64,000 nt of DNA from Thalassoglobus sp. (GCA_048266185.1 JBLWZY010000001.1:652002-716001); one strand, 5' to 3'. Positions 1,351 through 60,412 are shown, numbered from the stretch's first letter. Notes: generated from the letters alone by a model not told the origin. A program made the numbers and translations.

Positions 1351-1453
1351 TAGACCAGTTTGCTCAACCATGTGCCTGGGAAGATCACTTTCACGACTCC
1401 GCAAACTGCTTACCACGAAGCAGAACTTGAAGACGAACATTAGATTGACGCGA
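1351..1453 (+). repeat. Dispersed ~104-bp palindromic repeat, copy 1 (103 bp)
   Basis: Starts (c)TAGACCAGTTTGCTCAACCATGTGCC. 53/70 ungapped identity to the 20151-20254 copy and 35/41 to 19433-19473 (manual alignment). Confidence 0.8.
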
Positions 1454-1462
1454 GAACACGCA

Positions 1463-2836
1463 ATGTTTCATACACGACGAGACCATCTGAAGCAGATGCT
1501 TGCTGGATCGGTTGGCCTGTCAATGGCCGGATTGACGGGGCAAACGCTGGAGGCTTCGACAGTCCAGACGCAATTCACTCATCATACCCCCAAGGCAAAG
1601 CGGGTCATCTTTCTGTTCATGCATGGAGGCCCGAGCCATGTCGACCTGTTCGATTATAAGCCGGAGTTGCAGAAGCGAGATGGTGGTGAGTTGCCATTTG
1701 AAACACCGTCGAACATTGATGCGAAACGAGTGTTAATGAAGTCTCCCTGGAGCTTCAAGCAGTATGGCGAATGCGGTCAATGGGTTTCAGAACTCTTGCC
1801 ACACACTGCCAAAAAAGTTGACGACTTGAGTCTCATTCTGTCTATGCACAGCAAAGGTCAGTCGCACGGGCAAGCCGTTTCCATGTTGCATACTGGAAGT
1901 GATAACCTTGTACGCCCTTCGTTGGGGGCATGGGTGTCGTATGGGCTGGGAACAGAGAACAGCAACTTGCCATCCTTTGTTTCGATAGGACCATCGAGTG
2001 GGCATGGCGGTCCACGTAACTATGGTTCGGCGTTTCTGCCGGCTGAGCATCAAGCGACGACGATTGGCCGGCAAGGCAAAATCGGCAACGCAAAAATTGA
2101 ACATCTGATGGCGGACAGCAAGTCTCCTCAGCGAGACAAGCGGCGTCTTTCTCTCATCCAGTCCTTGAATCAATCTCACCTGGATCGGCTCGGTCCGGAT
2201 AAGCGAATTTCCGGAATGATCGAGGCGTACGATCTCGCCAGCCGGATGCAGCGATCCGCTCCGGAAGTTCTGGACCTTTCCAAAGAGTCTCCGGAAACCC
2301 AGGCATTGTATGGAATCGGAACGAAAGAGACCGACAACTTCGGACGGCAATGTCTGCTCGGCCGTCGGCTCCTCGAAGCGGGAGTCCGTTTTGTTGAACT
2401 CTCAACTGGAAATGTCTGGGATCAACATGGTGGACTCAAGGCAGGGCATGAGAAAAACGCACTTGCGACCGATCAACCGATTGCCGGATTACTGACTGAT
2501 TTGGAATCGCGAGGTCTCCTGGAAGACACACTCGTCGTCTGGACAGGAGAGTTTGGCCGAACTCCGACAGTTCAAGGGAGTAACGGGCGCGATCATAACC
2601 CACAAGGATTCTGCAGCTGGCTTGCTGGGGGCGGAGTGAAGAGCGGCTTCTCGTTTGGACAAACCGACGATTTCGGTTATCACGCAGCTGTGGACCGCGT
2701 CCACATGCACGACCTGCATGCGACAATCCTGCACTTGCTGGGAATCAATCACGAGGAACTGACTTACCGCTTCGCCGGACGAGATTTCAGATTGACGGAT
2801 GTCGCTGGCAGAGTCGTTGACGAAATTATCGCCTGA
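1463..2836 (+). CDS. DUF1501 domain protein with Tat-like signal
   Basis: Start moved to [13 protein letters not shown] (1463), because the ORF-track extension runs through the repeat. Motifs [65 protein letters not shown]. Confidence 0.92.
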
Positions 2837-2863
2837 TAAACCAGTCATGAAATACTGAGTGCC

Positions 2864-3586
2864 TTAATACGACGCCTCTCCAGAGGCAGTAATATTGATC
2901 GGTTCGAGTCCCAGCCGTTTCCGGCATTCGTCGAGAATGTCCTTGGTCCGACTCGCACCACAGCGAGAGACTCCGAGTGTTTTGACAGCCAGCAGCCCGT
3001 CGAAATCGCGAACACCACCGGCAGCTTTTACCTGCACATGTTCCGCAGCGTGCTTTCGCATTAAGATGAGATCTTCATGCGTCGCGCCGCCGGTTCCATA
3101 GCCGGTGGATGTTTTGACCCAGTCGACATTGAGCTCGCTGCAAATCTCGCACAGTCGAATTTTCTGGTCATCGTTGAGGTAGCAGTTCTCGAAGATGACT
3201 TTTAATTTCTGCCCGGTGCTGTGGGTGACCTCGACAACAGACCTGACTTCTTCGCGAACATATTCCCAGTCACCACTGAGAACTTTGGAGATGTTCACGA
3301 CCATGTCGAGTTCTTCACAGCCGTCAGCAATGGCCTGTTTGGCTTCAGCATGTTTGATGGTAGACGTGTGCCCACCGTGCGGGAAACCGATTGTGGTCGA
3401 TGCTTTGACAGTGCTGCCTTTGAGCTTTTCAGCACATTGCTTTAATGCAAAAGGCATGATGCAGACTGAAGCAACATCGTAGGCCAAAGCAAGTTCGATT
3501 CCCGATTCGAGATCCGCTGCATTGAGCGTTGGGCTGAGAAGCGAATGATCAATCATTTTTGAAAGATCGGAGTAAGAGTCGTCCAT
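2864..3586 (-). CDS. deoC: Deoxyribose-phosphate aldolase
   Basis: IDHSLL, TIGFPHG, ELDMVVN, LKVIFEN, VKTSTG (Schiff-base Lys), VKAAGGVR; C-terminal Tyr. Confidence 0.93.
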   Translation of the reverse strand: MDDSYSDLSKMIDHSLLSPTLNAADLESGIELALAYDVASVCIMPFALKQCAEKLKGSTVKASTTIGFPHGGHTSTIKHAEAKQAIADGCEELDMVVNISKVLSGDWEYVREEVRSVVEVTHSTGQKLKVIFENCYLNDDQKIRLCEICSELNVDWVKTSTGYGTGGATHEDLILMRKHAAEHVQVKAAGGVRDFDGLLAVKTLGVSRCGASRTKDILDECRKRLGLEPINITASGEASY

Positions 3587-3636
3587 GTTTGTGCTCGTGT
3601 TTCGGTTTCAACAGATACGATCAATGCGGCGTCGAA

Positions 3637-4563
3637 CTACTCGATGTTCGGAATGTAGTTTCGCAGGTATGTACAACTTTGCTGAAGAGACTGGAAGCGA
3701 GTCGTCAACGATCCCTCGTAGACTCGATCTTCGACCTCAACACAAACCGGACCGTCGTAACCTGAGTCACCGAGAATTGAGAAGAATTGTCCCCAGTTGA
3801 CATCCCCCATCCCTGGCAGTTTGGGAGTGTGATGCTCCATCGGGTTCGCCAGAATTCCAACACTGTTCAATCGGCCACGGTCAATGCGAACATCTTTGGC
3901 ATGGACATGGAAGATTCGGTCTGCAAACTCTTTGAGTGGCTCTAAATAATCCATGTGTTGCCAGACCATGTGTGACGGATCGTAGTTCAGGCCGAAGTTC
4001 GGGCTGGGGATGTCGCTGAACATGCGACGCCAAATCGCTGGGCTGATCGCAAGATTCTTACCGCCGGGCCATTCATCGTTCGAAAAGAACATCGGGCAGT
4101 TTTCGATGCCGATACGAACTGAATGTTGCTCAGCCAGTTCGATCAAGGGGCTCCAGAGATCAAGAAAGCGAGGCCAGTTGTCATCGATTGATTTTGTCCA
4201 GTCTCGACCGATGAAAGAGTTCACTCGGTTCAGTCCAAGTTGTGGAGCTGCTTCGATCAGTCGACGAAGATGTTCGATCGCGGTCTGCGATTCTTGTTGA
4301 TCTGGAGAGAGTGGATTCGGGTAATACCCCAGCGCACTGATGGAGACTCCATATCTGTCGGAGAGTTCCTGAATCTCGCGAATCGAGTTGTCATTCAAAC
4401 CGGTCACATCAATATGCGTCACCCCGGCGTAACGCCGCTCTGCTTTCCCGGGAGGCCAGCACATGACTTCCACGCAGTCATAGTTCAGCTGGGACGCGAT
4501 TGCAAAAACTTCTTCCAGAGTCTGGTCTGGGAGGATGGCGCTAGCGAATCCGAGTTGCATCAT
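3637..4563 (-). CDS. Sugar phosphate isomerase/epimerase (xylose-isomerase-like TIM barrel)
   Basis: Start MMQLGFASA after an AGGAG RBS. Metal motifs IGIENCP, LNYDPSH, HVHAKD, CVEVED. Confidence 0.88.
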
Positions 4564-4958
4564 TGAAGTTCTCCTGCATGGGACGTACATGTTTTCTGTG
4601 ATTGAGTGGGTGGATTTTAGTAAGTCTTCTGCGTGAGGCGTAGACTCTTGGCCTGCTGGGAAAAAGATTCCTGGGGAGATGGAAGTTCTCGGGCAGTGTG
4701 CGAAGACCATTTCGAAAGAGAATCAAATGCTTCCGATGAGATTGTTCTGGATGAACCCTCGGAAATTCAGATTCCTGAGACTTTACCACAACAACTCTGC
4801 AGTTGATTCACCTTGTCGATGCTGTATTGTTTGTACAGTTGCCATCTGAAAAAACGATGAAACTTTGAAGAGCCAATCTGGGCGAGATCGGTGAATTGCA
4901 ACTTCGTATCGATTCGAATTACGATTCATTCTTCTCGAACATTCAACGAAGAATAGAA

Positions 4959-59403: not shown

Positions 59404-59405
59404 TG

Positions 59406-59424
59406 CAACTGCTGAGAGCAGTTG
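59406..59424 (+). terminator. Perfect 8-bp hairpin just after the oxidoreductase stop
   Basis: CAACTGCT-GAG-AGCAGTTG; only a weak U-tract follows. Confidence 0.35.
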
Positions 59425-59530
59425 TTGATGAGGAAGGAGAGAAACCGGGCCCGCTGGTCGAGTGGAGCCCGTCCCTGTCTTCCTGTTTCGTAAAACTTTG
59501 AGCCGTGAAAACACAAGCAGTAGAACAGCA

Positions 59531-59776
59531 ATGCAAATCACAGTGAAACTTTTTGCCCGAGCGAGTCAGCTGGCTGGTCGATCGGAAGTCGTCGTCGAGG
59601 TTTCCGAAGAGGCAAGCGTTGGAGAGTTCCGGTCTGTACTTGCAACACAGCATCCCGAGCTTCAGCCGATCATCGACAGCCTCTTCGTTGCGATCAACGC
59701 GGAGTACGCGAACGATGACCAACTCATCCCGGAGTCTGCCGAAGTTGCCTGCTTCCCTCCTGTCAGTGGTGGGTAG
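59531..59776 (+). CDS. moaD: Molybdopterin synthase sulfur carrier
   Basis: MQITVKLFA...AINAEY...EVACFPPVSGG (C-terminal GG); adjacent to moaE. Confidence 0.92.
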   Translation: MQITVKLFARASQLAGRSEVVVEVSEEASVGEFRSVLATQHPELQPIIDSLFVAINAEYANDDQLIPESAEVACFPPVSGG

Positions 59777-59873
59777 CTCCACCTGAGAAGTCTGTTTGCT
59801 ATCATCTCAGAAGCATTCTCTACAAGAAACCGGTTCATAAGTCATTCGTATCAAGTTTCAATCCCACTGAACT

Positions 59874-60311
59874 ATGTCCATCGCCGAATCCGACCGTCTC
59901 GTCCAGCTGACCGATCAACCGATTGACAGTAATGCCCTCACGCAGTTTGCAACCACACCGAGGTCAGGAGCCGTCGTTCTGTTTCTGGGAACAGTTCGAG
60001 AACTGACAGGTGATCGGAAAACAGTCGCGCTCGATTACGATGCCTATCCAGAGATGGCATTAGCCAAAATGAATGAACTGGTTGACGAGGCCTGCGAAAA
60101 ATGGCCTGTTCAAAAAGTTGCGGTCGTTCATCGCACGGGGCATCTCGAACTCGCTGAGGCGAGCGTTGCCATCGCATTAAGTTGTCCACATCGCGTCGAT
60201 GCGTTTGAAGCGGGGCGGTTTCTGATCGACGAACTCAAGGTAAGAGTTCCCGTCTGGAAAAAAGAAAACTGGGACGATGGCACAACCGAATGGGTTCATC
60301 CCGGCGAATAG
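59874..60311 (+). CDS. moaE: Molybdopterin synthase catalytic subunit
   Basis: GAVVLFLGTVR, L.YDAYPEMA, HRTG.L, HR.DAF, DELK..VPVWKKE. Confidence 0.95.
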   Translation: MSIAESDRLVQLTDQPIDSNALTQFATTPRSGAVVLFLGTVRELTGDRKTVALDYDAYPEMALAKMNELVDEACEKWPVQKVAVVHRTGHLELAEASVAIALSCPHRVDAFEAGRFLIDELKVRVPVWKKENWDDGTTEWVHPGE

Positions 60312-60412
60312 AGCAGATTGCTCTACCATGTCCCCGTGAAGAACGCGAACTGCCAGTGAAACTGCCGTTCACCACGAGGCAGATCACGAACACGAATTCG
60401 AAAATTGCTGGA
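60309..60412 (+). repeat. Dispersed repeat, copy 7 (~104 bp); first TAG is the moaE stop codon
   Basis: TAGAGCAGATTGCTCTACCATGTCCCCGTGAAGAACG...GTTCACCACGAGGCAGATCACGAACACGAATTCGAAAATTGCT. Confidence 0.88.

What the first reader, a model, noticed from the sequence alone, without database searches (positions are those of the whole stretch)
1351..60412. A ~104-bp palindromic dispersed element whose terminal TAG doubles as gene stop codons
Seen: at least 7 copies in 64 kb (1351-1453 +, 6009-6052 + half, 11547-11663 +, 19399-19503 +, 20151-20254 -, 39316-39497 -, 60309-60412 +). Consensus is TAGAGCAGTTTGCTCTACC.TGTGCCCGTGAAGAAC-[variable]-GTTCACCACGAGGCAGA.C.TG.A.ACCAATTCGAAAATGCTCTA. Pairwise matches by hand: 33/37, 32/37, 41/44, 53/70, 35/41. 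The ends are inverted (TAGAGC/GCTCTA). The 5' TAGAGCA can pair locally (TAGAGCA-GTT-TGCTCTA) or with the far end, and CGTGAAGAAC/GTTCACCACG closes the variable middle. The terminal TAG/CTA is the stop codon of recG, the PilZ gene, the Mo-oxidoreductase, coxIII and moaE (possibly uvrC too); copy 3 terminates both flanking convergent genes. Known: ERIC and Correia elements insert at TA and overlap stops, and REPs sit just after stops. Inference: a planctomycete MITE/REP-like family, possibly hundreds of copies per genome, that targets (C)TAG and installs a structured 3'-UTR with two alternative folds. I do not recognise a named family, and no mobiliser is in the window.
Basis: partly seen in the sequence, partly recalled or inferred. 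Interest (0 to 1): 0.8.

Follow-up and report, generated by a model that had tools for sequence, protein, structure and literature searches.

The report
High-copy IS630-type MITE at stop codons
The repeat is a real, very abundant (about 2% of the genome) miniature non-coding transposon of a planctomycete that inserts at TA in YTAR/CTAG sites and, because it begins with G, rebuilds a TAG stop whenever it lands in a gene's TAA/TAG stop codon; it is a new family of a well-known kind, not a new mechanism.

Summary
The genome (6.67 Mb, Planctomycetaceae) has 392 full and about 950 total hits to the young 104-bp subfamily. A wider superfamily model gives about 1,400 hits, 2.0% of the genome.

Flanks and orthologous empty sites in a sister species (about 91% identical, collinear) show insertion at Y-TA-R with duplication of TA only. 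CTAG is the most heavily occupied target.

The right terminus is identical over 13 nt, and 23/27 overall, to the inverted repeats of an IS630-family insertion sequence (HTH_Tnp_IS630 + DDE_3). That IS has at least 7 copies in this genome. The terminus co-varies with the resident IS630 in another species.

The element is therefore an IS630-type MITE, closest in kind to pneumococcal RUP. It is not a REP/RAYT element and not an Rfam RNA.

The stop-codon effect is real. 96 of 309 strict copies end a gene of at least 100 codons exactly on their terminal TAG, against about 36 expected. About 25% of all TAG stops in the genome lie on MITE termini.

Nothing supports a selected 3'-UTR function. Orientation is unbiased (205 vs 204), old copies lose the fold, and no terminator motif is present.

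It is a new member of a known kind, of moderate interest.

The parts
60309..60412 (+). MITE1 copy (104 bp, right tip decayed); its TAG at 60309-60311 is the stop of moaE (59874-60311)
39316..39497 (-). MITE1 copy (182 bp) carrying a nested MITE2 in its central CTAG
   Evidence: the G005 orthologue is an uninterrupted 103-104-bp copy
39375..39452 (-). Nested 79-bp MITE2 (IS5-type ends TAGAACC...GGTTCTA), flanked by the duplicated TA of MITE1's central CTAG
11547..11663 (+). Older MITE1 copy (117 bp). TAG 11547-11549 stops the 118-aa ORF 11193-11549, and CTA 11661-11663 stops the Mo-oxidoreductase gene 11661-12380(-)
   Evidence: orthologous copy in G005 about 91% identical
6000..6052 (+). Right-half MITE1 copy (model positions 51-104); terminal CTA 6050-6052 is the recG stop (6050-8182 -)
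1351..1453 (+). Old-subfamily copy, diverged; no gene stop on its tip
19399..19503 (+). Old-subfamily copy with decayed tips (GAGAGC...GCTCTC)
20151..20254 (-). Old-subfamily copy; its TAG (CTA 20252-20254 on +) is the stop of the COX3 gene 20252-21247(-). In G005 a MITE2 sits in this terminal TA
12568..12675 (-).
43851..43853 (+). Empty target site: the TAG stop (context CTAG) of ORF 42600-43853. G005 has a full MITE1 here, with TA duplicated and the TAG stop regenerated
15780..15781 (.). Empty TA (C-TA-A) that carries a MITE1 in G005
   Evidence: site 3
25172..25173 (.). Empty TA (G-TA-A) that carries a MITE2 in G005
   Evidence: site 5

Best explanation
The repeat is a non-autonomous DNA transposon (MITE) of the IS630/Tc1-mariner type. 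Its core is 100 bp, GAGCAG...ATGCTC, flanked by a duplicated TA. It has no coding capacity and carries one IS630-like terminal repeat at the right end and a remodelled left end (TAGAGCA-GTT-TGCTCTA). It is mobilised in trans by the transposase of a 1,043-bp IS630-family insertion sequence that is present in several copies in this genome. Integration occurs at TA within Y-TA-R, best at CTAG. TAA and TAG stop codons preceded by a pyrimidine are perfect Y-TA-R sites. The element's first base after the TA is G at both ends, so an insertion into a stop codon rebuilds an in-frame TAG and leaves the protein unchanged. Such insertions are tolerated and accumulate, which gives the enrichment at 3' ends, between convergent genes and exactly on stop codons. 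Shown here: copy number, element boundaries, the TA duplication at empty and filled orthologous sites, the target preference, the stop-codon excess, the terminus match to IS630 and its co-variation across species. Inferred: that this IS630 transposase is the actual mobiliser, and that selection (neutrality of stop-codon insertions) rather than active targeting explains the 2.6-fold excess over target availability.
For: Family size and boundaries: about 590 left and 766 right ends. 309 strict full copies, of which 249 are exactly 104 bp, with median identity 96% to the consensus. 949 HMM hits, of which 392 are full. The superfamily gives 1,393 hits covering 132 kb, 2.0% of the genome. Target and duplication: flank -1 is C 56% / T 37%, and flank +1 is G 58% / A 35%. 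Occupied share of available sites is CTAG 9%, CTAA 4%, TTAA 1%. In orthologous empty sites, six G000-specific copies correspond to exactly 'TA' in G005. Window sites 43851-43853 and 15780-15781 are empty where G005 has a copy flanked by TA...TA. Partner IS: C2:50289-51331 runs C-TA-GAGCATCTTTC...GAAGATGCTC-TA-A and carries HTH_Tnp_IS630 + DDE_3. Its ends occur at 8 further contig termini, so there are at least 7 copies. The MITE right tip TAGAGCATCTTTC (283 copies) equals the IS left repeat tip over 13/13, and the right end matches the IS right repeat at 23/27. In G003 both the IS630 and the MITE have TAGAGCACTTTTCG, and G019 is similar. Stop codons: ORFs of at least 100 codons end exactly on the terminal TAG at 51 left and 42 right ends, against at most 4 at any other position. 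96 of 309 elements do so, against 36 expected. 282 of 1,108 TAG stops lie on MITE tips. At window 43851-43853 the stop codon itself is the empty target. Context: 41% of intergenic copies lie between convergent genes, against 16% of intergenic length, and 9% between divergent genes, against 29%.
Against: The sister species G005 has roughly 670 candidate copies, including lineage-specific insertions, but no DDE_3 or IS630 transposase at all. There the mobiliser has been lost, or another enzyme acts. The young subfamily's left end shares only the 7-nt tip plus scattered bases with the IS repeats. How the transposase binds that end is unknown. The single assembled IS copy has an 83-N gap and its transposase is split over two frames around an A7 run, so intactness cannot be judged.
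Confidence: 0.86

Rival explanations
1. The element is, or many copies have become, a host-selected structured RNA module at 3' ends (mRNA stabiliser, RNase III/E site, terminator or sRNA). On this view the enrichment after genes reflects function rather than tolerated insertion.
For: The young consensus folds strongly, at -34.4 kcal/mol with z -4.5. The central hairpin exists with different inner-stem sequences in G000, G003 and G006. Stems are less variable than the loop, 3.5% vs 15%. Copies are 3'-end biased. Correia/NEMIS transcripts are known RNase III substrates (PMC2229807).
Against: There is no orientation bias relative to the upstream gene, 205 vs 204. Old copies lose the fold, with z between -1.1 and +1.3 for window copies c1, c3, c7 and c8. 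Shared orthologous copies diverge about as fast as their flanks. The excess of pair-preserving substitutions is small, 34% vs 28%. There is no terminator-like hairpin with a T run and no Rfam match.
Confidence: 0.08
2. It is a REP/REPIN-type palindrome spread by a RAYT (Y1/HUH) transposase, like the GTAG-tagged REPs whose tips also supply TAG stops.
For: The left end is a short palindrome preceded by YTAG. Y1_Tnp-like genes exist in G000 and G005. GTAG REP termini are reported to supply TAG stops (PMC3733652).
Against: There is a clear 2-bp TA duplication at empty and filled sites. The terminus matches IS630 repeats. The unit is 104 bp, not 20-40 bp. No Y1 gene is flanked by copies in inverted orientation, and the nearest copies lie 219-6,269 bp away on one side only.
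Confidence: 0.02
3. It is mobilised by an IS5-family transposase (which also uses YTAR-type targets) rather than IS630. For example, the 942-bp IS5-type element at C2:157295-158236, whose ends match MITE2, could do this.
For: An IS5-family element with TA-flanked TAGAAC... ends is present. Both MITE families share the tip TAGA and the TA duplication. G005 lacks IS630 yet has lineage-specific MITE1 copies.
Against: MITE1 tips (TAGAGCATCTTTC) match the IS630 repeats 13/13, but match the IS5-type ends (TAGAACCGGTCC) only over TAGA. The tip co-varies with IS630 in G003.
Confidence: 0.04

Closest known systems
RUP (repeat unit of pneumococcus), proposed to be mobilised by IS630-Spn1
   Same: About 105-bp non-coding element with terminal repeats like those of a resident IS630-family IS. 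It inserts at TA, is mostly intergenic, and its high copy identity suggests recent mobility (PMC2229807).
   Different: No sequence relationship was established. The host phylum is different. Copy number here is about ten times higher (about 1,400 vs 108). The young subfamily has a remodelled hairpin left end. Stop-codon landing on this scale is not mentioned in the review I read (PMC2229807).
Correia/NEMIS (Neisseria) and ERIC/IRU (enterobacteria) MITEs
   Same: Small elements of 100-160 bp that, from general knowledge, are flanked by duplicated TA. They form long hairpins and lie close to or overlapping gene ends. Some copies act at the RNA level (PMC2229807).
   Different: No transposase partner is established for them. 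Here a partner IS is identified, and no RNA-level role is indicated.
GTAG-tagged REPs (Di Nocera et al. 2013)
   Same: [quoted passage not shown] The family is reported also in Planctomycetes.
   Different: REPs are 20-40 bp, have no target duplication and are linked to RAYT tyrosine transposases. This element has a TA duplication and IS630 repeats.
IS630 (target CTAG, TA duplicated) and Tc1/mariner-derived MITEs (Stowaway-like)
   Same: The target (CTAG/NTAN), the 2-bp TA duplication and the HTH + DDE_3 transposase are the same.
   Different: The element is non-autonomous, its internal sequence is unrelated to the IS, and only the tips are shared.

Membership tests
MITE (non-autonomous DDE-transposon derivative) | Small size (under about 300 bp) with no coding capacity | tested here: met
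   104 bp; 249 of 309 strict copies are exactly 104 bp; no ORF is possible
MITE (non-autonomous DDE-transposon derivative) | Target-site duplication, shown by empty against filled sites | tested here: met
   TA only. Six G000-specific copies correspond to 'TA' in G005, and window 43851-43853 and 15780-15781 are empty where G005 is filled
MITE (non-autonomous DDE-transposon derivative) | Terminal inverted repeats | tested here: inconclusive
   Tips TAGAGCA/TGCTCTA are perfect over 7 nt. Beyond that the young subfamily has about 18/28 matches (by eye). Older subfamilies have better left repeats (TAGAGCATTTTCA)
MITE (non-autonomous DDE-transposon derivative) | High copy number with presence/absence polymorphism between close relatives | tested here: met
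   392 full and 949 total hits; lineage-specific copies in both G000 and G005
IS630-mobilised MITE (RUP-like) | TA duplication at NTAN/CTAG targets | tested here: met
   Y-TA-R flanks; CTAG has the highest occupancy at 9%
IS630-mobilised MITE (RUP-like) | Termini similar to those of a resident IS630-family element | tested here: met
   13/13 tip identity and 23/27 at the right end; co-variation in G003 and similarity in G019
IS630-mobilised MITE (RUP-like) | Partner transposase (HTH_Tnp_IS630 + DDE_3) present in the genome | tested here: inconclusive
   Present in G000 in at least 7 copies. Absent from the MITE-rich complete genome G005. Intactness is unknown because of the N gap and the two reading frames
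IS630-mobilised MITE (RUP-like) | Mobilisation in trans demonstrated | not testable with these tools
   needs a transposition assay
REP/REPIN-RAYT | No target duplication; a 20-40-bp palindrome with a GTAG/CGTC head; a RAYT gene flanked by inverted REPs | tested here: not met
   TA duplication; 104-bp unit; no Y1_Tnp gene bracketed by copies
Any Rfam RNA family | Covariance-model match at or near the gathering score | tested here: not met
   No hit at gathering score in the 64-kb window. The only weak hits (E 3.3 and 8.5) lie outside the element
Intrinsic terminator | GC-rich hairpin followed by a T run | tested here: not met
   0 terminator-like sites in 59800-60600; the consensus has no T run after the hairpin on either strand

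The most novel reading that the evidence does not exclude
The TA|G tip may be an adaptation rather than an accident. On this reading the family exploits stop codons as safe harbours, so that about 6% of all genes and a quarter of all TAG stops in this genome end in transposon DNA. A subset of copies, especially between convergent genes, would then have been co-opted as 3'-end hairpins that affect mRNA fate. A related open point is that G005 gained copies after speciation yet has no IS630 transposase, which would imply cross-mobilisation or horizontal re-seeding.
Probability: 0.15. Interest if true: 0.55.

Novelty: new member of a known kind. Interest (0 to 1): 0.36.

Why it matters
This gives planctomycetes, for which I found no described MITE in the searched literature, a well-defined and recently active MITE family. 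The target rule, the partner IS and the empty/filled sites are all identified. It explains many contig breaks and much of the intergenic repeat content in these genomes. It also warns annotators that about a quarter of TAG stops here are transposon-supplied. The genome pair G000/G005 (with and without the transposase) is a natural system for studying MITE dynamics. The mechanism itself, TA-targeting IS630-type MITEs with repeat tips that double as stop codons, is already known in principle.

Tried and rejected
- An exact-pattern scan of genome contigs returned nothing, because the window's own and near genomes are left out of that collection. It therefore gave neither an organism name nor a wider distribution.
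- The second scan, with AtpD, placed the organism only in Planctomycetaceae.
- RNAalifold on a mixed alignment of subfamilies and species gave no consensus structure. I replaced it with per-sequence folds.
- My first flank-based orthology test was too strict, giving 5 usable pairs. I redid it with looser settings.
- The orthologue conservation test remains small, with about 13 shared sites, some occupied by different elements. It is only indicative.
- RAYT was considered and rejected.
- Rfam was considered and rejected.
- The literature search found no planctomycete MITE description.
- A 3-bp (CTA) or 4-bp (CTAG) duplication was considered and rejected. 37% of left flanks have T at -1 while the right end keeps C at -3, and the empty sites contain a single TA.
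Full report

Yes. The seven listed copies are at the stated coordinates. An unbiased repeat search recovers the same relationships: 11547-11583, 60309-60345 and 39461-39497 at 86-89%, and 6005-6044 against 39325-39364 at 90%.

The window is C1:652002-716001 of a 6.67-Mb, 70-contig, 50% GC genome. Iterated nhmmer with the two halves of copy 39316-39497 finds about 590 left and 766 right ends genome-wide. The profile boundaries collapse exactly onto TAGAGC... and ...GCTCTA.

There are 309 strictly paired full copies. Of these, 249 are exactly 104 bp and about 30 are 182-183 bp. The 104-bp consensus is TAGAGCAGTTTGCTCTACCGTGTGCCCGTGAAGAACGCATTTCTCTAGTAAAAATGCTGTTCGCCACGAGGCAGAACCTGCAAACCAATTCGAAAGATGCTCTA, with median copy identity 96%.

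A full-length HMM gives 949 hits, of which 392 are full, covering 1.24% of the genome. A broader model seeded from the diverged window copy at 20151-20254 converges on 1,393 hits. The union covers 132 kb, or 2.0% of the genome. This model also picks up an eighth window copy at 12568-12675(-). Window copies 1351-1453, 19399-19503, 20151-20254 and 12568-12675 belong to older, decayed subfamilies.

**2. What it is**

*Flanks and target.* The flanks of the 309 copies show C/T at -1 (56%/37%) and G/A at +1 (58%/35%), around invariant TA...TA. The target is therefore Y-TA-R. Among sites available in intergenic DNA plus stop codons, CTAG is occupied most (81 of 892, 9%), then CTAA/TTAG (4%), then TTAA (1%).

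*Sister species.* A same-genus species, G005, has a complete single-contig genome that is collinear with the window at 89-93% identity. It provides orthologous empty and filled sites.
- At window 43851-43853, G000 reads ...AACATC-TA-GCCTGATG. G005 reads ...AACATC-TA-GAGCAG...GATGCTC-TA-GCCTGATG.
- At window 15780-15781, G000 has C-TA-A where G005 has a copy.
- In a further 474 kb, six G000-specific full copies correspond to exactly 'TA' in G005.

The duplication is therefore 2 bp (TA), and the mobile unit is GAGCAG...ATGCTC.

*Age.* Shared copies are older, at 70-95% identity to the consensus. Lineage-specific copies are 92-98% identical. The family therefore predates the split of the two species and stayed active afterwards in both.

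*Nested second family.* The 182-183-bp variants carry a second element, MITE2 (79 bp, 414 hits), inserted in either orientation into the CTAG at the centre of MITE1. This is an internal empty/filled demonstration of the same TA rule. G005 also has MITE2 copies where the window has a bare TA, at 25172-25173 and 20253-20254.

**3. The mobiliser**

One DDE_3 locus is assembled in this genome. It is a 1,043-bp element at C2:50289-51331, with ends C-TA-GAGCATCTTTC... and ...CTGCAAACCAAAACTGAAGATGCTC-TA-A. It encodes HTH_Tnp_IS630 and DDE_3 domains in two frames around an A7 run. Its ends recur at 98.7-100% identity at eight contig termini. The IS is therefore multi-copy (at least 7 copies) and collapsed in the assembly.

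The commonest MITE right tip, read inward, is TAGAGCATCTTTC (283 copies). It is identical to the IS left repeat tip, and the MITE right end matches the IS right repeat at 23/27.

Across species the tip co-varies:
- In G003, the resident IS630 has TAGAGCACTTTTC(A/G), and the G003 version of the MITE has TAGAGCACTTTTCG.
- In G019, a different genus, the IS reads TAGAGCATTTTTCGAAATGGTATTC and the MITE reads TAGAGCATCTTTCAAACTGGTATTC.

Older subfamilies also have an IS-like left end (TAGAGCATTTTCA). The young, successful subfamily has a remodelled left end that forms the 7-bp hairpin TAGAGCA-GTT-TGCTCTA.

The element is thus an IS630-type MITE. The one uncomfortable fact is G005. It has roughly 670 candidate copies, including its own insertions, but no IS630 transposase detectable by profile or by protein search. 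The partner has presumably been lost there.

**4. The stop-codon effect**

TAA and TAG preceded by a pyrimidine are Y-TA-R sites. Both element ends read TA|G inward. An insertion into such a stop therefore regenerates an in-frame TAG.

- Genome-wide, ORFs of at least 100 codons end exactly on the terminal TAG at 51 left and 42 right ends of the 309 strict copies. No other single position has more than 4.
- 96 of the 309 elements carry at least one such stop, and 2 carry two. About 36 are expected if insertions were random among 4-mer-matched sites in intergenic DNA plus stop codons.
- In a simple ORF-based gene set (4,705 genes), 239 TAG stops lie on MITE1-superfamily tips and 43 on MITE2 tips. 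That is 25% of all 1,108 TAG stops.
- A further 20 gene ends read TAAAGC, where the tip G has mutated to A and the stop is kept.
- At window 43851-43853 the stop codon of ORF 42600-43853 is itself the empty target, and it is still a TAG stop in the filled G005 allele.
- In the window, recG, a 118-aa ORF, the Mo-oxidoreductase, COX3 and MoaE all stop on element tips.

The 2.6-fold excess over availability fits purifying selection removing insertions from promoters and regulatory DNA. Copies are 2.5-fold enriched between convergent genes and 3-fold depleted between divergent ones. Active targeting of stops need not be invoked.

**5. Is it a functional RNA or 3'-UTR device?**

I found no support for this.
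- Orientation relative to the gene whose 3' end it faces is 205 vs 204.
- The young consensus folds well (-34.4 kcal/mol, z -4.5). Old window copies do not, with z from -1.1 to +1.3 for copies c1, c3, c7 and c8.
- Orthologous copies diverge about as fast as their flanks.
- Single substitutions keep base pairs 34% of the time, against 28% expected.
- No terminator-like motif is present, and there is no Rfam match.

The hairpin's persistence in young subfamilies of three species may reflect requirements of transposition or simply the element's origin. This remains open.

**6. Comparison with what is known**

The closest analogue is RUP of Streptococcus pneumoniae. RUP is 107 bp and inserts at TA. 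Its terminal repeats resemble those of IS630-Spn1, which is proposed to mobilise it (PMC2229807). Correia and ERIC work similarly.

That repeat tips can supply TAG stops is already reported for GTAG REPs (PMC3733652). REP/RAYT membership fails here, because there is a TA duplication, the unit is 104 bp, and no Y1 gene is bracketed by copies.

I found no description of a planctomycete MITE.

Verdict: this is a new member of a known kind. It is notable for its abundance and for the clean demonstration of stop-codon landing, but it is not mechanistically new.

Noticed in passing
window 39375-39452; G000 C2:157295-158236: MITE2, a second TA-flanked family (79 bp, 414 hits, 0.46% of the genome). 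Its tips (TAGAACCAGTCCGAAAAC / TAGAACTGATCCTGAAAC) match the inverted repeats (TAGAACCGGTCCTGAAAC) of a single-copy 942-bp IS5-family element. That element encodes DUF4096 + DDE_Tnp_1 in two frames around an A7G6 run. MITE2 also supplies 43 TAG stops.
   Followed up: partly
G005 (whole genome; L021-L024, L049-L068): The sister species has roughly 670 candidate MITE1 copies, some lineage-specific, but no detectable IS630/DDE_3 transposase. It is an orphan MITE population.
   Followed up: partly
G005 C1 region 4626001-4700000, reverse-complemented to the window's orientation: positions about 46603-46678 and 67765-67871: Two further TA-flanked mini-elements are absent from G000. One is a 76-bp element (TAGCTCTAACAAAACC...GGTTCTTA) next to the orthologue of copy 39316-39497. 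The other is a 107-bp TAGAGCGAATCT...AATGCTCTA element nested in the orthologue of copy 60309-60412.
   Followed up: no
G000 C2:50916-50998: An 83-N run lies inside the only assembled IS630 copy. The transposase reading frame switches at TTCAAAAAAAGTC (an A7 run). This could be a programmed or transcriptional frameshift, or a pseudogene.
   Followed up: no
G000 C43:13276-13688: A degenerate IS630 3' fragment (77% aa identity, one in-frame TGA) is followed directly by a MITE2 and then a MITE1 right half, forming a small pile-up of nested TA insertions.
   Followed up: no
genome-wide: 20 gene ends read TAAAGC on a MITE1 tip. The tip G has mutated to A but the stop codon is preserved, consistent with selection on the stop rather than on the element.
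   Followed up: no
window 36741-36955: Three tandem 69-72-nt direct repeats (66-78% identical) lie inside ORF 36020-37321(-). They appear to be the repeated helices in the Rieske-protein tail noted in another first-stage finding.
   Followed up: no
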